Shown: piece after piece, positions 23,904 through 59,214 of the stretch | How positions within the stretch are numbered: the stretch's first letter is position 1 | How the letters are laid out: the number at the start of each line of letters is the position of its first letter | NCBI GenBank assembly: GCA_028909515.1 | Contig: GCA_028909515.1_4811.1 | Strand: one strand, 5' to 3' | Length of the DNA: 64,000 bases | Source: a phage | Notes under the pieces: model-generated | What the model saw: only the letters and a program-made list of their open reading frames with translations | What the model was told of the DNA's origin: nothing | The model's database searches: none | Made by a program: the position numbers and the translations under genes

Positions 23904-23949
23904 GCGCTATTAAGTTATACTCATTATACGTTAACAAGTGAGGTGTTTT

Positions 23950-24646: not shown

Positions 24647-24653
24647 GGTTGAC

Positions 24654-42584: not shown

Positions 42585-42911
42585 ATGAACGAAAAAGAGA
42601 CGAAGCAACGCGAACGTGCAACACACGTCGGAATCGTTGAGTCCTTCCTTAATACAAGATTGAATTCAAGCCTAACAATCATGCGATTCCTGGGTCAACC
42701 AGACAGAATCAAATTTATTTTTGCCGCAAATCCGGTATCGCTGTACATCCCTGTTGAATCCATGGCGTACTTAGTGCGCGACGAGAAAGGATGGAAGATA
42801 CCAAACACAACTGTTTTCTTCAGCCATGTTGATGGTGAGATGTTTGAACGAAAAGAAGATTGCCATTTTATTCCAGTATATCTGGACCTTGAAAGCGTAG
42901 TGGAGTTATAA
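42585..42911 (+). CDS. hypothetical protein
   Basis: 108-aa ORF; stop overlaps helicase start. Confidence 0.45.
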   Translation: MNEKETKQRERATHVGIVESFLNTRLNSSLTIMRFLGQPDRIKFIFAANPVSLYIPVESMAYLVRDEKGWKIPNTTVFFSHVDGEMFERKEDCHFIPVYLDLESVVEL

Positions 42912-44198: not shown

Positions 44199-44254
44199 TA
44201 AGTTATCCCAAACGGGGAATATAAAATAAACTAATTTATTTAAGGACTGTGAAT

Positions 44255-45094
44255 ATGGCCGAAGCAATCAAAGTATTATCTAAAGAAGAAAAACAAGCAG
44301 CCGCAGCAGAACGTCGTCGCGTGGCTGAAGAAAAACGCCTGGCTAAAAAGAAAGAAGCCGAAGAAAAACGCCAGAAGCGTGAGCAGGAAAAACAAGCCAA
44401 GCGTGAAGAAGCTGCGCTGAAACGCAAGCAGGCTGCTGATGAGAAGGCTCAGAAGCGTGCTGAAGAAGCAGCTAAGAAAGCTAAAGAGCGTGCAGAAAAG
44501 GCTGCTGCTAAGAAAGCAGAGCGTGAAGCCGCTAAAGCAGCAAAAGAAATCGAAAAGGCAAAGGCTAAAGAAGAAGCCAAGCGCCTGAAAGCTGAGCAGG
44601 CTGCGGCCAAGAAAGCAGAGCGTGATCAAGCCCGTGCTGCAGCGAAGGCCGAAAAAGAGAAGGCCAAAGAAGAAGCTAAAGCGAAACGCAAGGCAGAGCG
44701 TGAAGCTGCTAAGATTGCGGCGAAAGAAGCTGCAGAACAGCAGAAAGAACAGCGTAAGAAAGAAGCTGAAGAACGTCGCAAAGCCATCGCAGAACGTAAG
44801 GCTGCTAAAAAGGCAAACGGTCAGCGTCGTGCAAAAGCCACTCACTTCATCTACACTGGCAATGGCCTGAGCCAGCCGCAAGAGCATTCCACCCGTGGAC
44901 GCGTTCTGGCGGCGATCAAAGAAGGCGAAGTTGGCGTGGCGCAGTCTATCGATGAGCTGGGCGAAAAAGTTAAAGATCAACTGTTTGGCGCTTCCGTTCG
45001 CTCCTACCTGAGCAAGCTGGAAGAGATGGGCCACATCGAGTTTGTCGATGTTGAATCCAACGGCGATGCCGAAGACGGTGATCAAGCGGAATAA
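44255..45094 (+). CDS. Lys/Glu/Ala-rich charged helical protein (histone H1-like low complexity)
   Basis: About 190 aa of K/E/A/R repeats then a ~85-aa globular C-terminus; own promoter and terminator; host-optimal codons; ATG at 44255 preferred over GTG at 44249 for RBS spacing. Confidence 0.6.
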   Translation: MAEAIKVLSKEEKQAAAAERRRVAEEKRLAKKKEAEEKRQKREQEKQAKREEAALKRKQAADEKAQKRAEEAAKKAKERAEKAAAKKAEREAAKAAKEIEKAKAKEEAKRLKAEQAAAKKAERDQARAAAKAEKEKAKEEAKAKRKAEREAAKIAAKEAAEQQKEQRKKEAEERRKAIAERKAAKKANGQRRAKATHFIYTGNGLSQPQEHSTRGRVLAAIKEGEVGVAQSIDELGEKVKDQLFGASVRSYLSKLEEMGHIEFVDVESNGDAEDGDQAE

Positions 45095-45226: not shown

Positions 45227-46222
45227 ATGAACATGAAACAACCTGTAATGATTATCGGCGGCGGACTGGCAGGACTTATCACCGCGTGTCACTTCCCGAA
45301 CTCTATTGTGTACGAAGCAGGGGAACGAGCGCAACAGCACAAGGCACTGCTACGCTTTCGCGGCGAAGAAGTAAGCCGTATTACCGGAATCCCTTTTAAG
45401 GCCGTGACAGTTGACAAGGCTGTGTATTTTCGCGGTAACTACTACCACGACCATTGCCCAATCAACCTTGCCAATATGTATTCCATGAAGGTCACCAATC
45501 AGTTTGGCAGTCGTTCAATCATGAAGCTTAAAACTGCAACGCGTTATATTGCGCCTGATGACTTTTATGATCAGCTTGTCGACAAACTGGGTGACCGCAT
45601 ATTCTTTAATACTCCGGTTGATACTCTTTGCGGCTATAGCGAGACGCCAATCATCAACACGTCGCCGCTGCCAGTAATGATGAAGCTTGCTGGGATTGAT
45701 CAAAAGCTTGATTTCTCATTTGATAAAGCAAACATTCGCGTTTACCGCTTTAAGATTAAACGTAAGTGTGATTTGTATCAGACAATTTACTTCCCTGACT
45801 ACTCCGTCAGAACTTACCGCGCATCAATTACTGGTGACACGCTTATCATTGAAACAATTCCTTTGGTCAGCGTGAGTGAAGCTGCAGTTGAAGCCGCTGG
45901 CGGCATCACCCGTTATCGCGACATGAAGCTGCGCGCGGAAGTGGACGAAGTTCTGACCGCTTTTGGTCTTTCATGGAATGACATCTCTTTGGAAGAAGTT
46001 GAAAAGGTTGACCAGAAGTATGGCAAGATTGTAGACATTCCGAAAGACTTGCGACACGCCTTACTGCTCCAGCTGACTATGGATTTGAACGTATTCAGTG
46101 TTGGCCGATTCGCTACATGGCGCAACATCTTGCTTGATGACGTAGCTCATGACCTTGTTGAAGTTGAAAAACTCATCAAAGCAAATAACTATCAAAAATT
46201 TGCTTATATTGCTAATAAATAA
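45227..46222 (+). CDS. FAD/NAD(P)-binding oxidoreductase
   Basis: N-terminal Rossmann dinucleotide-binding motif 'VMIIGGGLAGLITA' with downstream acidic residue ('VYEAGE'). Confidence 0.6.
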   Translation: MNMKQPVMIIGGGLAGLITACHFPNSIVYEAGERAQQHKALLRFRGEEVSRITGIPFKAVTVDKAVYFRGNYYHDHCPINLANMYSMKVTNQFGSRSIMKLKTATRYIAPDDFYDQLVDKLGDRIFFNTPVDTLCGYSETPIINTSPLPVMMKLAGIDQKLDFSFDKANIRVYRFKIKRKCDLYQTIYFPDYSVRTYRASITGDTLIIETIPLVSVSEAAVEAAGGITRYRDMKLRAEVDEVLTAFGLSWNDISLEEVEKVDQKYGKIVDIPKDLRHALLLQLTMDLNVFSVGRFATWRNILLDDVAHDLVEVEKLIKANNYQKFAYIANK

Positions 46223-46287
46223 TTTGCTTTCTTCTTCAATGTGCGTATACTTTAATCATTGAAGCAGAACTCATAGAGGAAACGAAA

Positions 46288-46734
46288 ATGAAACGAATCA
46301 CTGGAATCGCGCTTGCCGCGACTGCTATTCTCGGCACCATGTATATGGAAGCGACTGAAGCCGCCGTCCGTACTTCCGATTCAATCGCTGTTTACGATTG
46401 TGAAGCGATGGACGGTAAGACCGCAGCAACGACTGGTGCGAAGATTACCACTTACATCGGTGTGAATGAGCAAGAAGGTCTGAATATTCAGATTCAGGGA
46501 TTCACGGGAAAAGGCGCCAACCGGACTCCGTGGATGCAGCGTTTCACTTTCGTTCAACCTCGTTCAACTGGCGCCTTTATCAACCTGATTGGTGAAAACC
46601 GTTCTGGTGCAGAAATCTTTACATCAATGAGTTCCAATAATGAACCAAAGAAAAGTTTTCAGTTGCTTTATAACGCACAATTCGTTTATCATTGCACCTT
46701 CTCTGGTGATCAGCAACTAGTTAACTACCGTTAA
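46288..46734 (+). CDS. hypothetical protein with N-terminal hydrophobic/signal-like segment
   Basis: 148 aa; 'ITGIALAATAILGTMYM' at N-terminus. Confidence 0.45.
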   Translation: MKRITGIALAATAILGTMYMEATEAAVRTSDSIAVYDCEAMDGKTAATTGAKITTYIGVNEQEGLNIQIQGFTGKGANRTPWMQRFTFVQPRSTGAFINLIGENRSGAEIFTSMSSNNEPKKSFQLLYNAQFVYHCTFSGDQQLVNYR

Positions 46735-46747
46735 TAGGATAATTAAA

Positions 46748-47551
46748 ATGAAAGTTGAATTAATTCGATACACCCAAGATGCACTTGACCTTTTGCTGGA
46801 AACAAAGAACACGCGCATGACTGGTAAGCCAGTCTCTGAGATGACAGAATCAGAGAAGCAAGAGCACTGGCGATACATGCTTGACACAATCAAGTCGCCT
46901 TTTGATTTTGTGGACTATATCTTTGACATCACTGATGTATCAAAGAATATGACTCATCAGATGGTGCGCACGCGCACAGGTGCATATCAAGAACGTACAA
47001 GCCGCGCTCAGGAATCTTCTGCTTTTGATGCGATTCGTCCTGCCAAATTTACTTACCCAGAGGATGATCCAAAGGGATGGACTCGTCATGACGAGAAGGC
47101 TGCTGAACTGGCAGAGAAATGGGATGATGCGATGGCCACGATTGACGCCCTCTACCAAGAGCTTCGCGCGGCTGGCGCAGAGATTCAAGATGCACGTGCC
47201 GTGTTGCCTTCTAATATGCAAACGCATATCATGGCAAAGTTCAACTTGCGAACGCTGCAACAGATGGCGTCAAACCGCTTGTGCACGCGCACCCAAGGCG
47301 AGTATCAGGAAGTTTTCCGTGCGATGGTAGCTGAAGTCCTCAAGGTGCATCCGTGGGCTAATCCTTTACTACAGCCGCAATGCATCGGCATGGGCAAGTG
47401 CGCATTCCCTCGCCATGGCAAGGCCCATTGCCCTTGGTATCGTGATTGGATGGATACCACTGCACAGCAAGAAGAATTACGCATCCAGTTTTGGAATGCA
47501 ATGCCAATCACCAATAATCCGGTTGCCAAAGATGGAGTATCAAAAGGATGA
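46748..47551 (+). CDS. ThyX-fold protein (flavin-dependent thymidylate synthase family), divergent signature
   Basis: Collinear with recalled ThyX sequences: 'FDITDVSKNMTHQMVRTRTGAYQERTSRA' versus canonical '...HE.VRHR.AS.SQ.S.RY', and 'FNLRTLQQMASNRLCTRTQGEY' versus 'NLR...HF..LR....AQ.EIR'; RHR is replaced by RTR and the Tyr after S-x-R by Ala. Confidence 0.65.
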   Translation: MKVELIRYTQDALDLLLETKNTRMTGKPVSEMTESEKQEHWRYMLDTIKSPFDFVDYIFDITDVSKNMTHQMVRTRTGAYQERTSRAQESSAFDAIRPAKFTYPEDDPKGWTRHDEKAAELAEKWDDAMATIDALYQELRAAGAEIQDARAVLPSNMQTHIMAKFNLRTLQQMASNRLCTRTQGEYQEVFRAMVAEVLKVHPWANPLLQPQCIGMGKCAFPRHGKAHCPWYRDWMDTTAQQEELRIQFWNAMPITNNPVAKDGVSKG

Positions 47552-48420
47552 GCATTAAAAACAGCGAAATCTTAAACGTATTCGACCTTGACGGAACGCT
47601 GTTTGATGACCGTTGGCGCTTAGACCGCATCAAGGTGGCAGGTCCGTTGTCAGACTATGATGACTATCACAGCGGTATTGGTTATGATCAGTTCTATCCT
47701 CACATTGCATCAGCAGTAGAGTCGGCATCTCTTCGCGGTGAGGCGGTTGAATATTGGACTGCAAGGCCAGAAAAATACAGACAAGTGACTTTTGAACGTC
47801 TGGACAATGTTTTCCCTTTTGATGAATTTACAATCAAGATGAGAGACTATGGCGACAAACGTCCATCAACTATCATGAAATCTGCATGGCTATCGCACGC
47901 ATTGCGGCACGGTGATTATCGAATCATCAATGTATTCGACGACCGACAAGACGTACTCGCGCGGATGCAAGATGAAGCATTGTATTATAATTCCGTTGCT
48001 CAAAATAAAATCGCTTTTACATTTAATCTTTGCAAGGCAGGTGAAGTGGTGCAACAATTAGCAATTGATCCAAGCGCAACAGGGCAAGAAGAGACTAAGG
48101 CTGTGGAAGTTGAACAATCTCCGGCAACTGCCGCCGATATTCTTGATGCAATGGCAGCAACCTTCCGTGAGCGCAACGCTGTCTATGGCGATAACGCTGT
48201 GATGGTAGGTCAGGTTATGCAGGTGCTTTTCCCTAATGGCGTAACGTTGAAAACGCCGGAAGACTACCACATGTGGCATCTGTTCGAGCTTAAGATTGTC
48301 AAGCTTACACGCTTTGCAATCAGCGGCCTGAAGCACGAAGACTCTATACACGATGATGGTGTTTACAGCGCCATGTGTGAACGTCTTGTAAACACCCATA
48401 ATATTAATTTCAATAAATAG
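47548..48420 (+). CDS. HAD-family phosphatase fused to an alpha-helical C-terminal domain
   Basis: HAD motif I 'VFDLDGTLFDD'; 4-nt overlap with the ThyX-like gene. Confidence 0.55.
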   Translation: MSIKNSEILNVFDLDGTLFDDRWRLDRIKVAGPLSDYDDYHSGIGYDQFYPHIASAVESASLRGEAVEYWTARPEKYRQVTFERLDNVFPFDEFTIKMRDYGDKRPSTIMKSAWLSHALRHGDYRIINVFDDRQDVLARMQDEALYYNSVAQNKIAFTFNLCKAGEVVQQLAIDPSATGQEETKAVEVEQSPATAADILDAMAATFRERNAVYGDNAVMVGQVMQVLFPNGVTLKTPEDYHMWHLFELKIVKLTRFAISGLKHEDSIHDDGVYSAMCERLVNTHNINFNK

Positions 48421-48449
48421 TTTACTTGTGCGTTTCGATGAGTTATATT
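48421..48449 (+). promoter_or_regulatory. sigma70-like promoter with conserved downstream box
   Basis: TTTACT-N17-TATATT followed by TACCTCATCGAAACGAA. Confidence 0.5.
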
Positions 48450-48485
48450 TACCTCATCGAAACGAAGTCCAAAAAGGATAAATAA

Positions 48486-49169
48486 ATGAAAAAAGTAATT
48501 GTTGTAACAGGTTCCAATTCCGGTCTTGGTAAATCTATTTTTGACACCCTTGGCGCTTACGGTCATAACGTGCTTGGCATCGATTCAGCATACGGATATG
48601 ACGTCCGCGATGCTAAACAGATGAAAGAAATTTTAAGCCCATATGATGTTGAAGGCTTGATCAACTGTGCTGGTGTCAACTCTAACAACTGGTTCGAAGA
48701 TGTTAACTACGAAGAGTTCAATCGCGTTATGCACACCAACGCCTTCTCTTTCGTCAACACGACTCAGGCCGCGCTGAAAAGTCTTATCGACAACAAAGGC
48801 TTTGTGATCAACATCGTTTCCAACGCTGCGCATATTCCTATGACGTCCAGCTTGTGTTATAATGCATCCAAGGCTGCTGCGCTTATGATCAGCAAGCAGA
48901 TGGCTCACGAACTTACGCCTAAGTACGGCATCACGGTATTCTCTATTAGTCCTAACAAGTTGCGCGGCACTGGCATGTCTAAACAGATTGAAGATGCCGT
49001 TTGTGCGACTCGCGGCTGGACTCCTGAATACGCTGCTGAATACCAGAAAAAGGCATTGATGAATGGATTGGAGACTGAGCCGCAAGTAATTGCCGACTTC
49101 ATTCGCCATATCTTAATTACGGGCGCATGGCGCTTTATGTCTGGCACTGATATTCCATTTGGTAAATAA
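48486..49169 (+). CDS. short-chain dehydrogenase/reductase (SDR)
   Basis: 'VIVVTGSNSGLGKSI' cofactor motif and 'YNASK' catalytic Y-x-x-x-K; promoter upstream. Confidence 0.65.
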   Translation: MKKVIVVTGSNSGLGKSIFDTLGAYGHNVLGIDSAYGYDVRDAKQMKEILSPYDVEGLINCAGVNSNNWFEDVNYEEFNRVMHTNAFSFVNTTQAALKSLIDNKGFVINIVSNAAHIPMTSSLCYNASKAAALMISKQMAHELTPKYGITVFSISPNKLRGTGMSKQIEDAVCATRGWTPEYAAEYQKKALMNGLETEPQVIADFIRHILITGAWRFMSGTDIPFGK

Positions 49170-49265
49170 ATCACGAACATTTTAAGTTGTCACACCCGCT
49201 CCTGAAAAGAAACAGGACGAAGACAACACAGTAATTAATCAATAATATTTAATTAAGGAAACAAA

Positions 49266-49817
49266 ATGCCACATTTTAAAATTGAACAAATCGCCCTGTC
49301 AATTCCAGATGCTCAGCGCGCACAGGATTTCTTGGCTAAAATCGGCCTGACGGAATGGTTCCATGATCATGTTGTTGCTACTGGTCGCGTATTTGAAGCT
49401 GATGACTTTAAAGGTCGTCGCGACGATTGCACCAATGAAGCTGACTTGCGCTTCAACTATCAGGCTGGCAACGGTACTGATGGCGGCGCTGGTAAGCCTC
49501 TTGAGCTTGAAATACTTGACTACACAATGGGCTGCAACTGGATTAACGAAAACATCGAATATATCGATGCGCATGACAATCAGGTCAGCCACCTTGGCAT
49601 GCATGTGACTGCCGCTGAACTTGCTGAATGGCGTAAGTTCTTTAGCGAAGAAGGCATTCAGGTTGCACAGGAAGTTGTAACTGACTCTCATACCAACCCG
49701 AACATTGCTGGTCAACGTCGTTACAACTATGTGATCTTTGATACGCGTGAAATCATCGGTGTTGATTTGAAGTTTATCGTGCGCTTGAATCAAGACGGTA
49801 CTCCGTACACTGTATAA
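49266..49817 (+). CDS. VOC/glyoxalase-fold protein (tentative)
   Basis: 'PHFKIEQIALSIPDAQRAQDFLAKIGL' and 'SHLGMHVTAAELAEWRKFFSEEGIQV' resemble paired glyoxalase-type modules. Confidence 0.4.
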   Translation: MPHFKIEQIALSIPDAQRAQDFLAKIGLTEWFHDHVVATGRVFEADDFKGRRDDCTNEADLRFNYQAGNGTDGGAGKPLELEILDYTMGCNWINENIEYIDAHDNQVSHLGMHVTAAELAEWRKFFSEEGIQVAQEVVTDSHTNPNIAGQRRYNYVIFDTREIIGVDLKFIVRLNQDGTPYTV

Positions 49818-49871
49818 CGAATCGTGAATCTGTGGCCGTCCTAATGGGCGGCCTTTTTGTAGGAGGCTAAT

Positions 49872-50414
49872 GTGTTATTTCTCCCTTATGACTTCGAAAC
49901 AACCGGATTGACCGTGCACCCGAAAGCGCCGCTTGGGATGCAGCCGCGCCCTATTGAATTTGCAGGTCTGTTGACAGACGGCAAAGAGATTCTTGAAACG
50001 TTTGAATTCATAATTAATCCTGAAATCGTGATTGAAGAAATTATCACAAAGATTACCGGATTAACAAATGAAGACCTTGAGTGCAATCCACCATTCATCA
50101 ATTTCGTCCCGCAGCTAAAAGAAATCTTCAAGAAGACTGATGCAACTATCGCGCACAACCATGCGTTCGATAAAAACATTCTTGATTATGCACTACAGCG
50201 CGAAGGACTTACGCTTGATGATGTTAATTTTCCAGAAATAAACATATGTACAGTTGAGCAAACCTTGCCTATTTTTGGCCGAAGAGTTAAGCTTCAAGAG
50301 CTGTATGAATTATATTTCGGAAAATATGAACAGAAGCACCGTGCATTAGACGACGTAATATTACTGCACAAAGTCTGCCAACAAATTGGCGTATATGACA
50401 TCTGGAGTAAATAA
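49872..50414 (+). CDS. DnaQ-like 3'-5' exonuclease (DEDDh)
   Basis: Exo motifs 'DFETTGL', 'HNHAFD', 'HRALDD'; stop overlaps polymerase start. Confidence 0.75.
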   Translation: MLFLPYDFETTGLTVHPKAPLGMQPRPIEFAGLLTDGKEILETFEFIINPEIVIEEIITKITGLTNEDLECNPPFINFVPQLKEIFKKTDATIAHNHAFDKNILDYALQREGLTLDDVNFPEINICTVEQTLPIFGRRVKLQELYELYFGKYEQKHRALDDVILLHKVCQQIGVYDIWSK

Positions 50415-53311
50415 TGTTTCCACAATTGAGAGTTCGCAGCGGTTACACGTTCAAAGAAGTTTATGGACGGCATCCTGAAATTATAGCACGGCTCAAAGAG
50501 TTGGGCTGCGAAGTCGCGGCATTAGTTGATAACAACACATGGGGTCACGTCCGCTGGGAAAAGGAATGCCAGAAAAATGATATTAAGCCTATGTTTGGGA
50601 TGGAGATTCCAATCATCGACCCTGATGCGGACCCTAAAAAGGGATTCAAACCGAAGGCTTGGATATTGGCCCTTGACTTAAAATCTTTTTACAACGCTAC
50701 GACACTTGCAACGCAGCGTGGTGGCCTTACCCGTGCAGAGTTCGGTGCGCTTGATGGCGTCGTTAAATTCTGTGGCGGTGCCGTTGAGCTGCTGCGGCCA
50801 GAGGACTACGATTATATAGACGTCAACCCATCATCGTTCCTTTTGGCTAAGCGCCAGGTGTTGGCTCACCGCAGCAACGGAAGGCCGCTGGTTTTAACCG
50901 GATACAACCACATGCCTTCACCTAAGCACGTTGACTTTGCTTATGCTTGGGAAGTGCGCGACACGGTCAAGCCGCACTGCATCGTTGACGCGGAAGACTT
51001 GCGCAAACAGCTTAAAGGCATCTTGACTGAAGATGAGCTCAATCAGGCAACGGCCAATGCTGTTGACATAGCAAACGGCATAGTCGGACTTGACCTGAAA
51101 TTGCGTAAGGCACCGATTATTCACCTTGCTGGTGACATGGTAAAGCTTGCTCGCGAGGGGATGGAGTATCGTCTCAAAGCAGGTCACATCAAAGAGTGGA
51201 CTCAGGAATATGAGGACCGCTTCAACGAAGAAATTCACCAGATTCAGCTGAAAGATTTCGACTCATACTTTCTGGTAGTAGCGGACCTTGTACGATTCGC
51301 AAAAACAAAAATGCTCGTCGGGCCTGCTCGCGGCTCATCGGCTGGTTCACTTGTTTGCTATTGCCTCGGCATCACGGAAGTGGACCCAATCCCGTATAAG
51401 CTGCTGTTTGCCCGATTCATCGACGTAAGCCGCGCCGACCTTCCTGACATCGACATCGACTTTGAAGATACCAAACGCTACATGGTGTTTGATTATCTTA
51501 AAGAGAAATATGGCGAAATGAACGTTGCAAAGCTTGGCAACATCAACACGCTTAAGGCCAACTCAGTAATGGCGCAGGTTGGTAAGAAGTTCAACATTGG
51601 ATACCACGAAACGGCCAACATTAAAAACGCACTGCTTGAATACTCATCCGGTGACGCCCGTTATGGTCACGGCCTGGAGGATACCTTTGCAACAACGACC
51701 ACGGGCCAAGAGTTTGTGGCGAAATATCCTGACGCCGCGCGTTGCATGGGTGACCTTGAGATTCACCCGTCTCACACAGGTGTTCACGCAGCGGGAATCA
51801 TTGTGTGTAATGACCCAATCTCTGATTACTGTACTGTAACTGCAGAAGGGATTGCGCAAATCGATAAGCCTGACAGCGAATACCTAAACCTTTTGAAGCT
51901 TGATGCGCTGGGCCTTCGTACTCTCGGAATCATTTCTGATACTGGCGTGATAGATGCTGAAACGCTGTACGGAATCAAGCTTGATGACCAAAGCGTCCTT
52001 GACATCCTTAACGAAAACAAGATGTCAGGCATCTTCCAGTTTGAAGGCGACGCTGTACGCTCAGTAACCAACTTTGTGCACGTTGATAACTTTAACAAAA
52101 TCGATAACCTGACAGCACTTGGCCGACCTGGCCCGTTGTCGTCCGGTATGGCCCAGAAATACATTGAACGCGCGGCAGGACGTGCGCCGATTGAGTACGA
52201 CGTGCCGCAGCTTGAGCCGTACTTAAAAGAGACTTACGGCGTGTTTCTTTACCAAGAGCAAATCATGGCCGTGGTTAAAGAGATTGGTTCATTTGACTGG
52301 GCGAAAACATCCGCTGTACGTAAGGCGATGTCAGGTCGTAAGGGTGAGGAATACTTTAACAAGCTTGGCGAAGACTTCGTTGCAGGAGCAATAAATAACG
52401 GCGTACCGGAAGCGGATGCAAGAAAGCTTTGGCAAGCGATGGCGACGTTCGGGTCATGGGGCTTTAACAAGTCACACTCCGTATCATACGCGGTCGTGAC
52501 CTACTGGACCTTGTGGCTTAAGCGACACTACCCGTTGGAATTTGCCGCTGCTTGCTTACGCGCTGCTAAGGACGAAGACCAGACGATTGCGATATTACGT
52601 GAACTTGCGAAGGAAGGCGTGGATTATGTGCCAATCGACCCTGATCACTCTTCAATGAACTGGACCATCGCTAACGGAAAGCTAATCGGCGGCATCATGA
52701 ACGCAAAAGGATATGGCATGGTGAAGGCAATGAAGTATATCGAAGCACGTGAAGCCGGAACCTTAACGCAAAAGCAAAAGGATGCATTGGCCAATGCTGA
52801 AGTCAAATACGGCGACCTTACAGAGATGCACACAAAGTTCGGATGGGCATATAATGACCCCTATCTGATTGGCGTTACTTCCGGTGCTTCAATACGCCAG
52901 ATGAAGGAAGTCGGCGATGACGAGCGTGCAATAGTGATCGGCAAGTTGACCAAGAAAGTGCTGGCTGACGAGAACGAAGCGACACGCATCCGTAAACGTC
53001 TTGAGCGCGGCATTTATACAAAGCACGGCAAACTTAAAAAGGGTCTTCAAGCTGATGGCCGCTACGCAGAGTTTGACCAGTATGGAAACAAGCTTGAGAC
53101 TCAGTTCATTGACCTTATGTGCAAGGACGATTCGACCGACTCGCCAATGCGCTTCAGGATTCGTCCAGAGAAGTTCCAGAAATACGGGAAATACATTGCA
53201 GAGAACGTCGGGAACGGCGCATTCTTCCTGATGAAAGGCCGCAAACTTGAAGGCATTGACATGTTCATCGTCGACGTTATCAAACAGGTGTATCCAGATG
53301 GCAACAAATAA
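50414..53311 (+). CDS. DNA polymerase III alpha-type (DnaE-like) replicase
   Basis: 965 aa; N-terminal PHP-like region; 'GPARGSSAGSLVCYCLGITEVDP' matches the conserved Pol III alpha motif. Confidence 0.8.
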   Translation: MFPQLRVRSGYTFKEVYGRHPEIIARLKELGCEVAALVDNNTWGHVRWEKECQKNDIKPMFGMEIPIIDPDADPKKGFKPKAWILALDLKSFYNATTLATQRGGLTRAEFGALDGVVKFCGGAVELLRPEDYDYIDVNPSSFLLAKRQVLAHRSNGRPLVLTGYNHMPSPKHVDFAYAWEVRDTVKPHCIVDAEDLRKQLKGILTEDELNQATANAVDIANGIVGLDLKLRKAPIIHLAGDMVKLAREGMEYRLKAGHIKEWTQEYEDRFNEEIHQIQLKDFDSYFLVVADLVRFAKTKMLVGPARGSSAGSLVCYCLGITEVDPIPYKLLFARFIDVSRADLPDIDIDFEDTKRYMVFDYLKEKYGEMNVAKLGNINTLKANSVMAQVGKKFNIGYHETANIKNALLEYSSGDARYGHGLEDTFATTTTGQEFVAKYPDAARCMGDLEIHPSHTGVHAAGIIVCNDPISDYCTVTAEGIAQIDKPDSEYLNLLKLDALGLRTLGIISDTGVIDAETLYGIKLDDQSVLDILNENKMSGIFQFEGDAVRSVTNFVHVDNFNKIDNLTALGRPGPLSSGMAQKYIERAAGRAPIEYDVPQLEPYLKETYGVFLYQEQIMAVVKEIGSFDWAKTSAVRKAMSGRKGEEYFNKLGEDFVAGAINNGVPEADARKLWQAMATFGSWGFNKSHSVSYAVVTYWTLWLKRHYPLEFAAACLRAAKDEDQTIAILRELAKEGVDYVPIDPDHSSMNWTIANGKLIGGIMNAKGYGMVKAMKYIEAREAGTLTQKQKDALANAEVKYGDLTEMHTKFGWAYNDPYLIGVTSGASIRQMKEVGDDERAIVIGKLTKKVLADENEATRIRKRLERGIYTKHGKLKKGLQADGRYAEFDQYGNKLETQFIDLMCKDDSTDSPMRFRIRPEKFQKYGKYIAENVGNGAFFLMKGRKLEGIDMFIVDVIKQVYPDGNK

Positions 53312-53720
53312 CCGTGAACAGAAATACATATTCGTGCCTTTGAAGAAGCATTCAGAATCAATCTTGAAGCTTCAAAGAATCGAATCAATGACGGGTGATG
53401 GTGTGCCGGACGTAATCGGCACCAACCGGAAAGGGCGCGGCTTTTGGCTTGAAATGAAGTTCTTTGAATCGTGGCCTGCAAGGGCCACCACTCTTCCTTT
53501 CAAGAGCGCATTTGAGAAAGGTCAACAAAGCTTTTTGACTTCTTGGAGTGATTGGAAATTCTCGTCATTCGTGTTGCTGAAGGTGGACTCTGAAAAGGCT
53601 TATTATTTAGTTCACCCTTCATTGCGATTAAAAGAATATACTAAGCATGAGATTCTGGCTATGGTCGCCGCGAGCGGGTCCATCCATCACATCATCAAGT
53701 ATTTAGAGGAATTGTCATGA
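53298..53720 (+). CDS. PD-(D/E)xK nuclease (VRR-NUC-like)
   Basis: Start set at 'MATNNREQ'; 'GVPDVIG...FWLEMKF' gives a PD...ExK arrangement; 14-nt overlap with polymerase end. Confidence 0.5.
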   Translation: MATNNREQKYIFVPLKKHSESILKLQRIESMTGDGVPDVIGTNRKGRGFWLEMKFFESWPARATTLPFKSAFEKGQQSFLTSWSDWKFSSFVLLKVDSEKAYYLVHPSLRLKEYTKHEILAMVAASGSIHHIIKYLEELS

Positions 53721-55240
53721 AAACACAAGGGATGCGCCACCAGCTTCTGGCGCTTGATAAAGCAGGCCGCAGAAAATACTTTGCCTATTTCATGGAACAG
53801 GGTCTTGGTAAAACTTGGACCGCTTTGGCAGAGTTTGAAAAGCACTTCACTGCTGGCGCGTTCGATGCCATGGTCGTCATCGCTCCAAACGGTGTCCACT
53901 CCAACTGGATTCGTCGTGAAGCACCAGAACACCTTTCCATCAAGTGGATTGGGCACTACTGGCGCGGCAACGACAAGATGAAGACTAAAAAGGGCAAGGT
54001 GCTTTGGGAGAAGATGTTTGCTGATCACTACCCTGAAGGCGAAGTGCCTGCGCGCATCTTCTCATTCAACATCGATACCGTCAACACACCAGTAGGTTAT
54101 CAACACATCGAGTCGGTCTTGAAGAAATACCGCTGCCTGATGATCATTGATGAATCGACTCGCATCAAAAATAACACAGCAAAACGCTCCATCAAGGTCG
54201 TGGAATTGGGTCGGCTGGCAAAGGCCCGTCGAATCCTTTCTGGCACGCCGCTGCCGCGCTCGCCTGCGGATATTTACATGCAATATCACTTCCTTGAAGC
54301 AGGCTTGCTCGGCACCAAATCTTTCCGCGCCTTCAACTCTGAATTCACTGTGCTACTTGAAGCGCACGACCCAGAAATGCAAGCCATCCTCAAGAAAATC
54401 GGCGGCAATGGCTATGGGATTCCGCAAGTGCCGCGCAAAGACCAGTTTGGCCGACCGATGTACAAAAACCTTGACAAGCTTATCCGGCTGATGGAACCGC
54501 ACTATTTTCGTGCGACAAAAGCGGAATACTTGCCTGACCTTCCAGAGAAGGTGTATAAGTTTATCGACTTCGAGCTGTCGCCTAAACAACGCGATGTCTA
54601 CGATGAACTCAAGAATGAGTACAACTATTTGATGGAATACAAGGGCGAAGAAGAAAACGTTAAGTTTGAGATGATCGCATCTCGCACTAAGATGAAGCAG
54701 GTTACATCAGGCTTTGTTAAGGTGTATGATGAGATGGTCTACATGGAAGACAACCCACGATTCACGGCCTTTAAGGACTATGTGGAAGGGGTGCTGGAAG
54801 ACGACCCAGAGCGCAAATTCATTGTTTGGGCCATCTTTAAGGAAGAGATGAACCAGATTAAGGATTGGCTTGAGTCTGAAGGAGTGGTCACTGGTGTATA
54901 TAACGGTGAGACGTCAAAAGAGCAGCGTGAGTTCTTGATTGATGACTTCCAGAAGAACACAGTCGAGAACGGTGGGACGCAAGTGCTTGTTTGTCACGCT
55001 GCAGCGGCAGGAATCGGTATCACGCTTACCGCCGCCGACTTGGCAATCTATTATTCTTGCAACTATGACAACGAGTTGCGCAAGCAATCTGAAGACCGAA
55101 ATCACCGAATCGGCACAAAATCAAGCGTGTTGTATGTTGATTTTATTGGTGTTGATACCATCGACGAAGAAATTCAGCGTTCATTAAGTATGAAGTCTAT
55201 GCTTGCTGATCACATCCTCGACGGCAAAAAGATGAATTAA
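53717..55240 (+). CDS. SNF2-family helicase/ATPase
   Basis: 'MEQGLGKTW' (Walker A), 'MIIDESTRIKN' (DExx box), C-terminal helicase lobe 'LVCHAAAAGIGITLTAA'. Confidence 0.75.
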   Translation: MKTQGMRHQLLALDKAGRRKYFAYFMEQGLGKTWTALAEFEKHFTAGAFDAMVVIAPNGVHSNWIRREAPEHLSIKWIGHYWRGNDKMKTKKGKVLWEKMFADHYPEGEVPARIFSFNIDTVNTPVGYQHIESVLKKYRCLMIIDESTRIKNNTAKRSIKVVELGRLAKARRILSGTPLPRSPADIYMQYHFLEAGLLGTKSFRAFNSEFTVLLEAHDPEMQAILKKIGGNGYGIPQVPRKDQFGRPMYKNLDKLIRLMEPHYFRATKAEYLPDLPEKVYKFIDFELSPKQRDVYDELKNEYNYLMEYKGEEENVKFEMIASRTKMKQVTSGFVKVYDEMVYMEDNPRFTAFKDYVEGVLEDDPERKFIVWAIFKEEMNQIKDWLESEGVVTGVYNGETSKEQREFLIDDFQKNTVENGGTQVLVCHAAAAGIGITLTAADLAIYYSCNYDNELRKQSEDRNHRIGTKSSVLYVDFIGVDTIDEEIQRSLSMKSMLADHILDGKKMN

Positions 55241-56191: not shown

Positions 56192-57052
56192 ATGTCTAAG
56201 AAAGAAACCACCGAAGTTGCAGTGAAAAACACCCAGATGTCCGCTATGGCTGATTTTGTCGACATGACCGATTTTGGCGCTGGTTTTGAAGGTGCCGATG
56301 CCGATGCGTATGCCATTCCTTTTATCGTCGTACTGCAGAAGATGTCTCCTATGGTCGACGAAGATGATCCGAAACACGTTCCTGGCGCAAAAGCTGGCAT
56401 GCTTTACAACACCGTTACTGGTGAGTTGTATGACGGCAAGAAAGGCGTGCAGATCATCCCTTGCGCATTCAAACGCACCTTCATTCTTTGGGGCGGTCGC
56501 GAGTCCGACGATAAAGGCTTTAAAGGTGAATTCACCAAAGAGCACGTTGATGCAGAAGTCGCGGCAGGCCGCGCTGTTGAGATCAACGGTAAGGTATTCG
56601 TGCCGGACGAAAACGGCAAGGTGCACGAGAAGAAATCTCCTTACTACGCAGATACACGCAACCACTTCGTAATTCTGTTGAACGAAGAAACTGGTGAATT
56701 TGGTAGCGCAATGCTGTCTCTGACTTCTTCCATGATCAAGCCGTCTCGCATGCTGATGACCGCCCTGCAGCAGAAGAAAGTTCAGACTCCGCAGGGTCTG
56801 AAAACGCCGCCGACCTTTATGAACATTGTTCGCATGGGTACTGCATCCCAGTCCAAAGACGGCAATACATGGTCTGTTCTGAAGTTTGAGCTGGAAGGTC
56901 TGGTGCAGGACAAAGGTCTGTACGAAGTCGCCAAGGCATTCCACAACGACGTAGTTGGCGGTAACGTTAACATCGACCGCAGCAAGCAGGAAGAAGCAAG
57001 CGGTGCCGCTGGTCCTGTCAATGAAACTCCGACCGACGCAGAAGAGTTTTAA
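56192..57052 (+). CDS. single-stranded DNA-binding protein-like (gp2.5-type acidic tail)
   Basis: 286 aa; acidic C-terminus ending '...ETPTDAEEF'; host-optimal codons; own terminator. Confidence 0.5.
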   Translation: MSKKETTEVAVKNTQMSAMADFVDMTDFGAGFEGADADAYAIPFIVVLQKMSPMVDEDDPKHVPGAKAGMLYNTVTGELYDGKKGVQIIPCAFKRTFILWGGRESDDKGFKGEFTKEHVDAEVAAGRAVEINGKVFVPDENGKVHEKKSPYYADTRNHFVILLNEETGEFGSAMLSLTSSMIKPSRMLMTALQQKKVQTPQGLKTPPTFMNIVRMGTASQSKDGNTWSVLKFELEGLVQDKGLYEVAKAFHNDVVGGNVNIDRSKQEEASGAAGPVNETPTDAEEF

Positions 57053-57625: not shown

Positions 57626-58249
57626 ATGAAACAGATTTATGCAAACATTCGCCAGTGGGCTTCTGACCGTAACATCATCCAAGGTTGCGACCTTAAGGAC
57701 CAATACCCGAAGCTTATCAGCGAGTTTGGGGAGTTAACCGACCACGTTGATCAACTCCATGACCTTGTGTTCTTCGACCCTGAAATTGGATATACAGAGC
57801 AGGCCATCTGTGACTTGCAAGCTGCAATCAAGGACGACATTGGCGATTGTCTTGTTGTGTTGACCATCCTGGCGGCGCAAAACGGTACTGAAATCGAAAA
57901 CATTAATGGCGGCGGTTGTGCTGATAAAGGCGCTCACCCTCATTCATTCATCCTTCGCCTGGCAAAGACCCTTGGACGGCTTGGTGATGCTATTGCTAAG
58001 AATCAGACCATGGATATTGACGTCACCATCATGGCCGCAGTCGATTACCTTTCCGGCGTAGCTCATGATTATGGCCTTCGCTTATCCGACTGTGCGCAAG
58101 CGGCCTACGAAGACATCAAGGACCGCAAAGGTGTCATGTACAACGGAACGTTCATCAAATCTACTGATCCAGCTTATGAGCACTCCTGCAAAATGGTAAA
58201 GAAGCTGGAACTTGAAGACCGTGTGATCAGAGAAGTTACAGGACAATAA
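57626..58249 (+). CDS. MazG-like nucleoside triphosphate pyrophosphohydrolase
   Basis: 'LISEFGELTDHV' and 'DDIGDCLVVLTILA' fit the MazG E-x-x-E / D-x-x-G-D metal-binding pattern. Confidence 0.55.
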   Translation: MKQIYANIRQWASDRNIIQGCDLKDQYPKLISEFGELTDHVDQLHDLVFFDPEIGYTEQAICDLQAAIKDDIGDCLVVLTILAAQNGTEIENINGGGCADKGAHPHSFILRLAKTLGRLGDAIAKNQTMDIDVTIMAAVDYLSGVAHDYGLRLSDCAQAAYEDIKDRKGVMYNGTFIKSTDPAYEHSCKMVKKLELEDRVIREVTGQ

Positions 58250-58251
58250 TT

Positions 58252-59214
58252 ATGACAGCATTAAAACCAATGAAGGGTTGCCAACGTAAGCAGATTATCG
58301 AGCGCGGCGAGGACGTGCCGCTGCCTTGCGGACTGTCATTCAAGGTCGATGGCATACGTGCAATGGCGTATGACAACTTGCCAATGGGCACTTCCGGCAT
58401 GCCGTTGCGCAACGTTCAAATCAAAAAAGAGTTCCTCTTTTTGGGTGAACTAATTCACGGACTTGATGGAGAGCTAATCGACGGAAATCCAAATGATAAG
58501 AACGTCATGCAACAGGCCTATACTGCATGCATGAATACTGATGCAATCACTAACTTTACATGGTGGGTGTTTGATGACTTCAGCGACCCTGATCTGCCTT
58601 TTGAAAAGCGTTATGCAAACTATCGAGCTAGAGTTGCTGAAGTTAATCAGCATCTCATCAACCATGGTCGACGCCCATTCCTTCGCGCTCTCGAATATCG
58701 AAACATCGAAAATATGGAACAGTACGCGGCGATGCAAATCGAAGCAGACCAGCTTGGATATGAAGGCTTGTATGGCAAGTCTTGGACGGGCAAATATAAG
58801 CATGGCCGCGCGACGCCGAAGTCACGTGATGTGTGGAAGGACAAGCCGTGGACCGATGAAGAAGGGTTGATCATAGACTTCGTTGAGATGATGGAGAACA
58901 ACAACGAAGCATTCATTGACGAATTGGGTCGCACCAAGCGTTCAAAAGAGGCTGAAGGTTTAGTTGCGAAAGGATACCTTGGCTCATTCGTAGTCGTCAA
59001 TCCAAAATATGTGGATGAGAAAGGTGAAATGATTCCTTTCCGCGTCTCCGCTGGTTCAATGCCTATGGCAGAGCGTAAAATGCTTTGGGAGAATCGCGAG
59101 AACTATCGCGATAAATACCTAACGTATAAATTCTTTAACTTTGGCATCGTCGACGTGCCGCGCTCTGCTTTGTATAAATGCTTCCGTGATATTACCGATA
59201 TGGAGTATTTTTAA
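58252..59214 (+). CDS. ATP-dependent DNA ligase
   Basis: Nucleotidyltransferase motif I 'FKVDGIRAM' (K-x-D-G-x-R); size comparable to small phage ligases. Confidence 0.7.
   Translation: MTALKPMKGCQRKQIIERGEDVPLPCGLSFKVDGIRAMAYDNLPMGTSGMPLRNVQIKKEFLFLGELIHGLDGELIDGNPNDKNVMQQAYTACMNTDAITNFTWWVFDDFSDPDLPFEKRYANYRARVAEVNQHLINHGRRPFLRALEYRNIENMEQYAAMQIEADQLGYEGLYGKSWTGKYKHGRATPKSRDVWKDKPWTDEEGLIIDFVEMMENNNEAFIDELGRTKRSKEAEGLVAKGYLGSFVVVNPKYVDEKGEMIPFRVSAGSMPMAERKMLWENRENYRDKYLTYKFFNFGIVDVPRSALYKCFRDITDMEYF

What the first reader, a model, noticed from the sequence alone, without database searches (positions are those of the whole stretch)
49872..53311. Phage-encoded bacterial-type replicase: separate DnaQ-like proofreader and DnaE-like polymerase
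A 180-aa DEDDh exonuclease is translationally coupled to a 965-aa Pol III alpha-type polymerase. This is rarer in phages than family A or B polymerases. Nearby are a PD-(D/E)xK nuclease, SNF2 helicase, Dda-like helicase, SSB-like protein, ligase, and primase/SF3-helicase genes on the other strand. No clamp or clamp-loader gene is visible in this window.
Basis: partly seen in the sequence, partly recalled or inferred. Interest (0 to 1): 0.4.

Follow-up and report, generated by a model that had tools for sequence, protein, structure and literature searches.

The report
Phage DnaE-type polymerase with separate proofreader
The two overlapping genes encode a bacterial-type (family C, DnaE-like) DNA polymerase and its separate proofreading exonuclease in an E. 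coli Wifcevirus phage, a correct but ordinary finding because the same gene pair is already annotated in dozens of near-identical and hundreds of related phage genomes.

Summary

- **Source:** the window is a Wifcevirus, an E. coli myovirus of about 68 kb. It is 98.8% identical at the DNA level to phage ManiWeber_Bas99.
- **Exonuclease, 49872-50414:** a 180-aa DEDDh exonuclease with all five catalytic residues. Its closest solved structure is the E. coli Pol III epsilon catalytic domain.
- **Polymerase, 50414-53311:** a 965-aa DnaE-type polymerase. Its three catalytic aspartates are invariant. The predicted order is PHP, palm/thumb/fingers, a helical region (aa 769-819) where DnaE carries its (HhH)2 domain, then an OB fold.
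- **Coupling:** the genes overlap by one base (TAATG). The order exonuclease, polymerase, PD-(E)xK-motif protein, SNF2 helicase is conserved in Pbunavirus and Myosmarvirus.
- **Differences from E. coli Pol III:** the PHP His-x-His metal motif is Arg-x-Arg, so PHP is very probably inactive. The polymerase has no tau-binding C-terminal domain and no canonical clamp-binding motif. The exonuclease lacks epsilon's clamp motif, linker and alpha-binding helix.
- **Clamp:** I found no clamp or clamp-loader gene in the window or in the annotation of the whole relative genome. How the enzyme achieves processivity is unresolved.

GenBank records already call these genes Pol III alpha and epsilon. Phage family C polymerases were surveyed in 2011, 2016 and 2024.

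The parts
49834..49858 (+). Terminator-like hairpin (8 pairs, 7 of them G-C, loop of 4) followed by TTTTT. It lies between the upstream gene (ends 49817) and the exonuclease ribosome-binding site.
   Evidence: (pattern scan only; the number of such sites in the region is no higher than in shuffled sequence) and the sequence.
49861..49866 (+). Shine-Dalgarno AGGAGG, 5 nt upstream of the GTG start of the exonuclease gene.
49872..50414 (+). Gene for a 180-aa DEDDh 3'-5' exonuclease of the epsilon/DnaQ type. Catalytic residues are D7, E9, D100, H156 and D161. It ends in a family-conserved tail, G173-V-Y175-x-x-W178.
   Evidence: Pfam RNase_T 9.6e-22. PHROG 192. Catalytic residues invariant in 47 homologues. 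AF2 model pLDDT 94.7. Best PDB match is E. coli epsilon186, 2gui, TM 0.82.
50404..50407 (+). GGAG ribosome-binding site for the polymerase gene, inside the 3' end of the exonuclease gene. The stop and start codons overlap as TAATG at 50412-50416.
50414..53311 (+). Gene for a 965-aa family C (DnaE-type) DNA polymerase.
   Evidence: Pfam, PHROG 405 at 1e-270, TIGR00594 above its cut-off, PDB sequence hits, AF2 model pLDDT 85.8, Foldseek hit to M. tuberculosis DnaE1 at 6e-51.
50414..51118 (+). PHP domain (about aa 1-235) with a degenerate metal site. The His-x-His motif is replaced by R6-V-R8.
   Evidence: Pfam PHP 26.7 bits. Alignments to E. coli alpha. R6 and R8 are present in at least 90% of 44 homologues. 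Foldseek local hits to the PHP-epsilon chimera 4gx9.
51140..52402 (+). Polymerase core: the Pol-beta-like palm with catalytic D345, D347 and D497, plus thumb and fingers.
   Evidence: PF07733 over aa 243-500 and PF17657 over aa 519-663. Aspartates invariant in the family and aligned to 'PDFDVDF' and 'KFDFLGL' of E. coli alpha.
52601..52870 (+). Region (about aa 730-819) corresponding to the (HhH)2 / beta-binding domain of DnaE; its modelled helices span aa 769-819. No QL[SD]LF-type clamp-binding motif follows it.
   Evidence: Alignment to E. coli alpha reaches residue 872. Helices at 769-819 in the model. Motif scan negative. No Pfam HHH_6 hit.
52925..53290 (+). C-terminal OB-fold domain (about aa 838-959) with an insertion at 853-896. 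The protein ends here, so there is no tau-binding C-terminal domain.
   Evidence: AF2 secondary structure shows beta-beta-beta-alpha-beta-beta. Full-length Foldseek alignment to DnaE1 and local OB-fold hits to RPA and Teb1. Region conserved in 44 homologues. Inferred from a predicted model.
53298..53720 (+). Gene for a 140-aa protein with a PD-(E)xK motif ('PDVIG...WLEMK'). It overlaps the polymerase gene by 14 nt. Databases label it 'DNA helicase'.
   Evidence: Motif. PHROG 2165. No Pfam hit. Same position in Pbunavirus and Myosmarvirus.
53717..55240 (+). SNF2-family helicase gene, overlapping the previous gene by 4 nt (ATGA). It is the last gene of the tightly packed four-gene string.
   Evidence: Pfam SNF2-rel_dom 8.6e-22 and Helicase_C 5.8e-11. 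PHROG 62.

Best explanation
The two genes encode the core of the phage's own replicative DNA polymerase.

- **The two subunits.** The 965-aa subunit synthesises DNA with a DnaE-type active site. The 180-aa DEDDh exonuclease removes misincorporated 3' nucleotides.
- **Expression.** The genes overlap (TAATG) and each has its own Shine-Dalgarno site. I infer that the proteins are made together and act as a complex.
- **Why a separate proofreader.** The PHP domain has lost its metal-binding His-x-His motif, so it very probably cannot proofread itself. That explains the need for a separate exonuclease.
- **Docking (inferred).** By analogy with E. coli alpha-epsilon, the exonuclease probably docks on the PHP domain. 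It must do so directly or through its short conserved aromatic tail (GVYxxW/F), because it has no long tether.
- **A stripped-down enzyme.** There is no tau-binding domain, no canonical beta-clamp motif and no phage clamp or clamp loader.
- **Likely partners (inferred).** Synthesis is most likely coupled to the phage's own AEP-type primase, VapE/D5-like helicase, Dda-like helicase and ATP-dependent ligase. The host Pol III holoenzyme scaffold is probably not used.

The source of processivity is not resolved.
For: **Shown**
- Family assignment of both proteins.
- Polymerase residues D345, D347 and D497 are invariant in 44 homologues. Exonuclease residues D7, E9, D100, H156 and D161 are invariant in 47 homologues.
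- One-base stop/start overlap, with ribosome-binding sites.
- The order exonuclease, polymerase, PD-ExK protein, SNF2 helicase, with overlapping genes, is conserved in Pbunavirus (56-58% protein identity) and Myosmarvirus (54-66%).
- It is the only DNA polymerase annotated in the complete 68-kb genome of the 98.8%-identical relative.
- The PHP motif is LRVRSGY against E. coli LRVHSDY, and the arginines are nearly invariant in the family.
- Two actinophage DnaE genes that keep the canonical LHTHS motif have no exonuclease within 4 kb either side. The three genera with R-x-R all have one immediately upstream.
- The polymerase ends after the OB fold.
- The exonuclease lacks the equivalent of epsilon residues ~181-230.

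**Established knowledge**
Against: - No experiment or complex model shows that the two proteins bind each other. The tools here could not model a heterodimer.
- The exonuclease fails the curated NCBIfam DnaQ models (for example TIGR00573, 37 bits against a cut-off of 71.5). Its role as a proofreader therefore rests on fold, motifs and gene linkage.
- The link between a degenerate PHP domain and an adjacent exonuclease has one exception in my small sample. Rhizobium phage RHph_X66 has a degenerate PHP and no exonuclease within 4 kb.
- Family C polymerases studied so far need a sliding clamp for processive synthesis, and none is accounted for here.
Confidence: 0.85

Rival explanations
1. Same two-subunit replicase, but it depends on a clamp. 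It would recruit the host E. coli beta clamp, loaded by the host clamp loader, through a non-canonical motif. Candidates are the exonuclease C-terminal 'QIGVYDIW' and the conserved segment G820-V-T-S-G824-x-x-I827, which sits where bacterial DnaE carries its internal clamp motif.
For: - The phage has no clamp or clamp loader.
- QIGVY (exonuclease aa 171-175) fits a relaxed form of the Q-L-[SD]-L-F pattern. It lies just after the catalytic domain, roughly where epsilon carries QTSMAF.
- G173 and Y175 are present in at least 90% of the family.
- Established knowledge: E. coli alpha and epsilon both bind the beta clamp.
Against: - The glutamine of QIGVY is not conserved among homologues, which show Q, H, T, K, R or F at that position.
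- At that stringency, about four such matches are expected by chance in the roughly 6000 residues scanned, and two were seen (the expectation is my own estimate).
- The tail is modelled as a short helix with pLDDT about 88, not as a free peptide.
- The polymerase has no Q-type motif between the helical region (aa 769-819) and the OB fold.
Confidence: 0.35
2. The exonuclease is not a polymerase subunit. It would be a free-standing DEDDh nuclease, for example one that degrades host nucleic acids, processes ends, or destroys defence signalling nucleotides, and it merely shares an operon with the polymerase.
For: - DEDDh/RNase_T domains have many functions. Foldseek also finds TREX1/2, ExoX, DinG-N and 3'hExo at similar E-values.
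- The exonuclease fails the curated DnaQ models.
- It lacks epsilon's alpha-binding C-terminal segment.
Against: - Strict adjacency and stop/start overlap with the polymerase are conserved across three genera at only 54-66% protein identity.
- The best structural match is epsilon itself.
- PHROG 192 groups it with phage 'DNA polymerase exonuclease subunit' proteins.
- The partner polymerase has a dead PHP site and no other proofreader.
Confidence: 0.07
3. The polymerase is a specialised repair or error-prone enzyme of the DnaE2 type, and host Pol III replicates the phage genome.
For: - NCBIfam also gives a hit to the error-prone polymerase model PRK05672 (331 bits).
- There is no clamp, no clamp loader and no tau-binding domain.
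Against: - The DnaE1 model scores much higher (PRK05673, 496 bits).
- The gene sits with a proofreader, a primase, three helicases and a ligase in a full replication module.
- It is the only polymerase in the genome.
- It is conserved at full length in a whole lineage of lytic myoviruses of 65-72 kb.
Confidence: 0.04

Closest known systems
Pol III alpha/epsilon-like gene pair of Wifcevirus, Myosmarvirus and Pbunavirus (PB1-like) phages, as annotated in GenBank
   Same: - The genes are the same: 95-99% DNA identity in 22 Wifcevirus records and 90-95% in 7 more.
- Pbunavirus and Myosmarvirus proteins are 54-66% identical, with the same gene order and the same overlaps.
- The genes are already labelled 'DNA polymerase III alpha subunit' and 'epsilon subunit / DEDDH exonuclease / DNA polymerase exonuclease subunit'.
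   Different: Nothing of substance differs. The window's polymerase has a somewhat longer insertion in the OB domain than the family consensus. Unlike some homologues, it carries no intein.
E. coli Pol III core (alpha, DnaE1, plus epsilon, DnaQ)
   Same: - The domain order is the same: PHP, palm, thumb, fingers, (HhH)2, OB.
- It has the same three catalytic aspartates.
- Proofreading comes from a separate DEDDh subunit.
- The PHP domain has an incomplete metal site.
   Different: - Sequence identity is only about 24-27% for alpha and about 19% for epsilon.
- There is no tau-binding C-terminal domain and no QADMF-type internal clamp motif.
- Both PHP histidines are lost; E. coli keeps one.
- The exonuclease is only the catalytic domain plus about 10 residues. 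It lacks QTSMAF, the Q-linker and the alpha-binding helix.
- No theta, clamp or clamp loader is encoded.
DnaE-like polymerases of actinobacteriophages (for example Gordonia phage Sukkupi gp60, Mycobacterium phage KandZ gp65)
   Same: They are family C polymerases encoded by phages of similar genome size. The core is 32-37% identical.
   Different: They are longer (1083-1100 aa) and keep the canonical PHP His-x-His motif (LHTHS). No DEDDh exonuclease gene lies within 4 kb either side. This suggests proofreading by PHP, as reported for M. tuberculosis DnaE1 (own knowledge).
PolC of Firmicutes
   Same: It belongs to family C and has a DEDDh proofreader. The exonuclease's best sequence hit in the PDB is a PolC exonuclease domain (2p1j, 4e-06).
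   Different: In PolC the exonuclease is inserted within the PHP domain of one polypeptide and the OB fold is N-terminal. Here the exonuclease is a separate protein and the OB fold is C-terminal, which is the DnaE arrangement. PolC models score only 42-45 bits.

Membership tests
Family C DNA polymerase, DnaE type (Pol III alpha) | Pol-beta-like nucleotidyltransferase palm with three catalytic aspartates | tested here: met
   D345, D347 and D497 align to 'PDFDVDF' and 'KFDFLGL' of E. coli alpha. They are invariant in 44 homologues. PF07733 scores 3e-63.
Family C DNA polymerase, DnaE type (Pol III alpha) | Score above a curated family threshold | tested here: met
   The TIGR00594 superfamily model scores 475.2 bits against a cut-off of 434.35. 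All bacterial equivalog models (DnaE1, DnaE2, DnaE3, PolC) fall below their cut-offs, so it is not an ortholog of any bacterial subgroup.
Family C DNA polymerase, DnaE type (Pol III alpha) | N-terminal PHP domain | tested here: met
   Pfam PHP scores 26.7 bits against a cut-off of 26.4. The model aligns with PHP domains and with the alpha-epsilon chimera 4gx9. The metal-binding His-x-His motif is lost (R6, R8).
Family C DNA polymerase, DnaE type (Pol III alpha) | Fingers domain followed by the (HhH)2 domain | tested here: met
   PF17657 scores 1e-37. Alignment to E. coli alpha continues to residue 872. Helices lie at 769-819 in the model. There is no separate Pfam HHH_6 hit.
Family C DNA polymerase, DnaE type (Pol III alpha) | OB fold C-terminal to the (HhH)2 domain (DnaE arrangement, not PolC) | tested here: met
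   The AF2 model shows an OB topology at 838-959. Foldseek gives a full-length alignment to DnaE1 and local OB-fold hits. This rests on a predicted structure only, with no sequence-profile hit.
Family C DNA polymerase, DnaE type (Pol III alpha) | Internal beta-clamp-binding motif (QADMF / QL[SD]LF type) after the (HhH)2 domain | tested here: not met
   No such motif occurs in the polymerase. The equivalent segment, 820-837, is conserved in the family but does not resemble a clamp-binding motif.
Family C DNA polymerase, DnaE type (Pol III alpha) | C-terminal tau-binding domain (DnaE1) | tested here: not met
   The protein ends 6 residues after the OB fold. E. coli residues ~1080-1160 have no counterpart.
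DnaQ / Pol III epsilon proofreading exonuclease (DEDDh) | Exo I (DxE), Exo II (NxxxD) and Exo III-epsilon (HxxxxD) motifs | tested here: met
   D7/E9, N96/D100 and H156/D161 are invariant in 47 homologues. Pfam RNase_T scores 78.7 bits against a cut-off of 24.
DnaQ / Pol III epsilon proofreading exonuclease (DEDDh) | Score above curated DnaQ family thresholds | tested here: not met
   TIGR00573 scores 37 bits against 71.5, and TIGR01406 scores 43.8 against 222.7. All others are also below their cut-offs.
DnaQ / Pol III epsilon proofreading exonuclease (DEDDh) | Fold of the epsilon catalytic domain | tested here: met
   The AF2 model has pLDDT 94.7. The top PDB match is E. coli epsilon186 (2gui): E 9e-11, TM 0.82/0.84, rmsd 2.5 A.
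DnaQ / Pol III epsilon proofreading exonuclease (DEDDh) | C-terminal segment that tethers epsilon to the PHP domain of alpha, and the clamp motif QTSMAF | tested here: not met
   The protein ends about 19 residues after the last catalytic Asp. Epsilon residues ~181-230 have no counterpart. Only a short conserved tail, GVYxx[W/F], remains.
DnaQ / Pol III epsilon proofreading exonuclease (DEDDh) | Physical association with, and proofreading for, the polymerase | not testable with these tools
   This is only inferred, from conserved adjacency, gene overlap and the inactive PHP domain.

The most novel reading that the evidence does not exclude
The pair is a naturally minimal, clamp-independent family C replicase.

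- The proofreader would dock rigidly on a dead PHP domain through a short aromatic C-terminal tail, without epsilon's flexible tether.
- Processivity would come from the polymerase's own (HhH)2 and OB domains, the OB fold carrying a lineage-specific insertion, or from direct coupling to the phage SF3/Dda helicases. No sliding clamp would be used.

Such an enzyme could contribute to the 3-5 minute infection cycle reported for Wifcevirus (PMC11990801).
Probability: 0.3. Interest if true: 0.5.

Novelty: already known. Interest (0 to 1): 0.15.

Why it matters
As an annotation it adds nothing. The pair is already labelled in public records, and phage family C polymerases have been catalogued (PMC3201878, PMC4889955, PMC11348598).

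The residual value is biochemical. No phage DnaE-type replicase appears to have been characterised in the literature I could search. This one is compact: two subunits, with no tau-binding domain, no recognisable clamp motif and no phage clamp.

It also comes from a genus reported to complete infection in 3-5 minutes, with unexplored mechanisms (PMC11990801). If it proves processive on its own, it would be a useful model for how family C polymerases can work outside the holoenzyme. It could also be a fast polymerase for applications.

Tried and rejected
- **Clamp-motif alignment in the polymerase.** A pairwise alignment placed phage 'IGKLTKKVLADENE' against the E. coli clamp-motif region 'IGQADMFGVLAEEPE'. 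I rejected it because the AF2 model puts residues 838-852 in the first strands of the OB fold.
- **Regex scan for clamp-binding motifs.** I scanned 22 proteins of the replication module. The only hit in the exonuclease-polymerase pair was QIGVY in the exonuclease tail. Its glutamine is not conserved and the number of hits is no higher than expected by chance.
- **Search for a hidden clamp or clamp loader.** Pfam and PHROG scans of 40 ORFs found nothing.
  - The largest unknown proteins in the module are not clamp-like. The 331-aa protein has a Rossmann GxGxxG motif. The 281-aa protein is a Lys/Ala/Glu-rich low-complexity protein. The 148-aa protein has a signal peptide.
  - The 286-aa and 185-aa unknown proteins gave no PDB hit by sequence or by a small profile.
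- **The 4.3 kb of the genome missing from the window.** In Bas99 this corresponds to about 20350-24704, where only baseplate genes and hypothetical proteins are annotated.
- **RNA elements.** Rfam and tRNA scans of the region found none.
- **Heterodimer model.** I could not model the exonuclease-polymerase complex. The structure tool takes single chains from the window only.


Full report
**1. What is there**

- The exonuclease gene runs 49872-50414 on the + strand. It encodes 180 aa from a GTG start.
- The polymerase gene runs 50414-53311 on the + strand. It encodes 965 aa from an ATG start.
- The exonuclease stop codon TAA (50412-50414) shares its last base with the polymerase ATG, giving TAATG.
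- AGGAGG lies 5 nt upstream of the GTG start. GGAG lies 6 nt upstream of the polymerase ATG.
- A G+C-rich hairpin followed by TTTTT (49834-49858) lies just upstream of the exonuclease ribosome-binding site. This is a pattern match only.
- Downstream, a 140-aa ORF (53298-53720) overlaps the polymerase gene by 14 nt.
- An SNF2 helicase gene (53717-55240) overlaps that ORF by 4 nt. The four genes therefore form one tightly packed string.

**2. Origin of the window**

- The 3.4-kb stretch is 98.8% identical to Escherichia phage ManiWeber_Bas99.
- It is 90-99% identical to 28 other records, which by organism name are 27 Escherichia phages, one Shigella phage and one labelled Wifcevirus (WFC, WFH, FEC19, vB_Eco4M-7 and others).
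- The polymerase protein is 99.9% identical to that of FEC19.
- Those records already annotate the pair, for example as 'DNA polymerase III alpha subunit' with 'DNA polymerase III epsilon', 'DEDDH exonuclease' or 'DNA polymerase exonuclease subunit'.
- The window is the reverse complement of Bas99 and covers all of it except about 20350-24704. Only baseplate genes and hypothetical proteins are annotated in that missing piece.

**3. The polymerase**

Sequence evidence:
- Pfam finds DNA_pol3_alpha (3e-63, aa 243-500), the finger domain (1e-37, aa 519-663) and a marginal PHP domain (26.7 bits, aa 5-91).
- PHROG 405 matches end to end at 1e-270.
- The curated NCBIfam superfamily model TIGR00594 is passed (475 bits against 434).
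- No bacterial equivalog model is passed. The DnaE1 model scores best (496 bits), ahead of DnaE3-type models (328-345), DnaE2 (331) and PolC (42-45).
- Solved relatives by sequence are Pol III alpha of T. aquaticus, E. coli and M. tuberculosis, at 1e-79 to 1e-85 with one sequence and 1e-97 to 1e-110 with a family profile.

Active site:
- The catalytic aspartates D345, D347 and D497 align with 'PDFDVDF' and 'KFDFLGL' of E. coli alpha.
- They are invariant in 44 homologues.

Predicted structure:
- I built an AlphaFold2 model on an alignment of 44 homologues of 57-87% identity. It has mean pLDDT 85.8 and pTM 0.79.
- Foldseek aligns it over its whole length with M. tuberculosis DnaE1 (7pu7, E 6e-51, TM 0.74), T. 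aquaticus alpha and E. coli alpha.
- The last 120 residues (838-959) have the strand-strand-strand-helix-strand-strand pattern of an OB fold, with an insertion at 853-896.
- That region also gives local Foldseek hits to RPA and Teb1 OB folds.
- The architecture is therefore PHP, palm/thumb/fingers, a helical region (aa 769-819) where DnaE has its (HhH)2 domain, then OB. This is the DnaE order.
- An earlier survey could not assign the region after the fingers in phage family C polymerases (PMC3201878). On the evidence of a predicted structure only, this model suggests that in this lineage it is the usual OB fold.

Three features of E. coli alpha are absent:
- **PHP metal site.** The PHP His-x-His metal ligands are R6-V-R8 (LRVRSGY). 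E. coli has LRVHSDY and actinophage DnaEs have LHTHS. Both arginines are present in at least 90% of the family.
- **Clamp motif.** No QL[SD]LF- or QxxLxF-type clamp-binding motif occurs anywhere in the polymerase.
  - The segment that occupies the position of the internal clamp motif (aa 820-837) is conserved in the family but does not resemble one.
- **Tau-binding domain.** The protein stops six residues after the OB fold, so there is no tau-binding C-terminal domain.

**4. The exonuclease**

- Pfam RNase_T scores 9.6e-22. PHROG 192 'DNA polymerase exonuclease subunit' scores 2e-37.
- The DEDDh residues D7, E9, D100, H156 and D161 are invariant in 47 homologues of 50-89% identity.
- The AlphaFold2 model is confident (pLDDT 94.7).
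- Its best solved match is the catalytic domain of E. coli epsilon (2gui: E 9e-11, TM 0.82, rmsd 2.5 A). It is followed by DinG-N, the PolC exonuclease, a DnaQ domain from Streptococcus thermophilus, and TREX1/2.
- All curated NCBIfam DnaQ models are missed.
- Compared with the 243-aa epsilon, the phage protein is the catalytic domain only. It lacks the clamp motif QTSMAF, the glutamine-rich linker and the helix that binds alpha.
- It ends in a short tail conserved across the family, G173-V-Y175-x-x-[W/F]178. The model shows this tail as a short helix.
- The GTG start is correct, because homologues share the N-terminal DxETTG motif.
- The Bas99 record starts its CDS at Met23 and so cuts off the Exo I motif.

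**5. Linkage and comparison**

- In Pseudomonas phage willy (Pbunavirus) and Erwinia phage TropicalSun (Myosmarvirus), the same four genes occur in the same order with overlapping stops and starts.
  - The exonuclease proteins are 54-56% identical to the window's, and the polymerases 58-66%.
- Full-length relatives of the polymerase occur in many phage-sized contigs of 65-72 kb.
- In the phage collection, 1414 of 50,697 records hold a homologue. Only 376 records cover at least 80% of the protein, and every such record in the evenly spaced sample of 40 came from this myovirus lineage.
- Two actinophage DnaE genes (Sukkupi, KandZ) keep the canonical PHP motif and have no DEDDh gene within 4 kb either side.
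- A Rhizobium phage has a degenerate PHP and also no nearby exonuclease.
- The sample is small. It fits the pattern known from bacteria, where separate epsilon-type proofreaders accompany DnaE proteins with inactive PHP sites (PMC3919608 and my own knowledge of M. tuberculosis DnaE1).

**6. Surroundings**

- Confirmed neighbours:
  - Dda-like SF1 helicase (42911-44095).
  - ThyX (46748-47551).
  - A HAD/PNKP-like protein (47548-48420).
  - A short-chain dehydrogenase (48486-49169).
  - SNF2 helicase (53717-55240).
  - MazG-like protein (57626-58249).
  - ATP-dependent ligase (58252-59214).
- On the other strand lie a RepB/AEP-type primase (41342-42424) and a VapE/D5-like helicase (38362-40032).
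- The replisome is therefore a mixture: a bacterial-type polymerase with an archaeo-eukaryotic-type primase, helicase and ligase. That mixture is described as common in phages (PMC4889955).
- The 140-aa ORF after the polymerase carries a PD...ExK motif but has no Pfam hit.
- I found no clamp, clamp loader or SSB family. None is annotated in the complete Bas99 genome.

**7. Mechanism**

- **Best supported (confidence about 0.85).** The pair is the phage's own replicase core, a DnaE-type polymerase with a separate DEDDh proofreader made from overlapping genes.
- **Shown.** Family membership, intact active sites, a dead PHP motif, conserved linkage, and the absence of tau and clamp modules.
- **Inferred.** The two proteins form a complex. 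The exonuclease docks on the PHP domain, by analogy with E. coli (PMC3664792). The complex works with the phage helicases and primase.
- **Unresolved.** The source of processivity. One option is independence from any clamp. The other is use of the host beta clamp through a non-canonical motif, which I rate at about 0.35.
- **Unlikely.** A free-standing role for the exonuclease (0.07) and a repair-only role for the polymerase (0.04).

**8. Novelty and score**

- The finding is correct but already known.
- The genes are annotated as such in public records.
- Phage family C polymerases have been surveyed: 28 of 808 dsDNA virus genomes in 2011 (PMC3201878) and 947 of 18,382 Caudoviricetes genomes in 2024 (PMC11348598).
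- What I add is small: the OB-fold assignment of the C-terminal region, the R-x-R PHP motif, the tether-less exonuclease, and a corrected start codon.
- My literature searches turned up no biochemical study of a phage DnaE-type replicase. Wifcevirus is reported to have an unusually fast infection cycle with unexplored mechanisms (PMC11990801). A biochemical follow-up would therefore have some value.
- Interest: 0.15.

Noticed in passing
window 49872-49937 (Bas99 PQ850618.1 38291-38767): The GenBank record of the closest relative annotates the exonuclease as 158 aa starting at Met23. That start removes the catalytic Exo I motif (D7, E9). The GTG start at 49872, with AGGAGG 5 nt upstream, and the conserved N-termini of 47 homologues show that the 180-aa form is right.
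   Followed up: yes
window 56192-57052: This conserved 286-aa protein of unknown function (Pfam Pam3_Gp34, PHROG 2402) lies in the replication module. It ends in an acidic tail with a terminal Phe (...TDAEEF; relatives end ...KADEF or ...KADSF). From memory, that resembles the C-terminal tails of E. coli SSB and T7 gp2.5 that contact polymerases. It is a candidate SSB or annealing protein. It gave no PDB or functional family hit.
   Followed up: partly
window 45227-49817: A run of enzyme-like genes lies between the Dda-like helicase and the exonuclease.
- A 331-aa Rossmann GxGxxG protein (PHROG 4828).
- A 148-aa protein with a signal peptide.
- ThyX.
- A HAD/PNKP-like protein.
- A short-chain dehydrogenase.
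- A weak glyoxalase/VOC-like 183-aa protein.

Wifcevirus phages are reported to resist most restriction systems without any known genome protection mechanism (PMC11990801). This cluster might therefore encode a nucleotide or DNA modification pathway.
   Followed up: no
window 44249-45094: This 281-aa protein has a first ~190 residues that are a Lys/Ala/Glu-rich low-complexity or coiled-coil stretch. A small globular C-terminal part and an acidic tail follow (PHROG 4765, unknown function). It accounts for the AT-skew peak at 44-46 kb.
   Followed up: no
window 53298-53720: This 140-aa protein is labelled 'DNA helicase' in PHROG 2165 and in GenBank records. It carries a PD-(E)xK nuclease motif (PDVIG...WLEMK) and always sits between the polymerase and the SNF2 helicase. 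It is probably a nuclease partner of the helicase, not a helicase itself.
   Followed up: partly
window 49834-49858: A strong terminator-like hairpin (7 G-C pairs) with a T5 run sits immediately upstream of the exonuclease ribosome-binding site. It suggests a transcript boundary or an attenuator in front of the exonuclease-polymerase-nuclease-SNF2 string.
   Followed up: partly
homologues P0098 (1215 aa) and P0115 (1232 aa): Two homologues of the polymerase are about 250 aa longer. P0115 carries an intein domain (PF14890). Separately, Pbunavirus homologues (for example phage willy, 1036 aa) are about 70 aa longer than the window's protein. The window's polymerase has no such insertion.
   Followed up: no
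L007 (Gordonia phage Sukkupi), L009 (Mycobacterium phage KandZ), L008 (Rhizobium phage RHph_X66): Actinophage DnaE-like polymerases keep the canonical PHP His-x-His motif (LHTHS) and have no DEDDh exonuclease within 4 kb. The Rhizobium phage polymerase has a degenerate motif and also no nearby exonuclease. A genome-wide survey of PHP status against exonuclease presence in phages would be straightforward.
   Followed up: partly
window 38362-40032 (-), aa 216-220 of the VapE-like helicase: The pentapeptide QIGVY found at the exonuclease C-terminus also occurs once in the VapE/D5-like helicase. This is probably coincidence.
   Followed up: no
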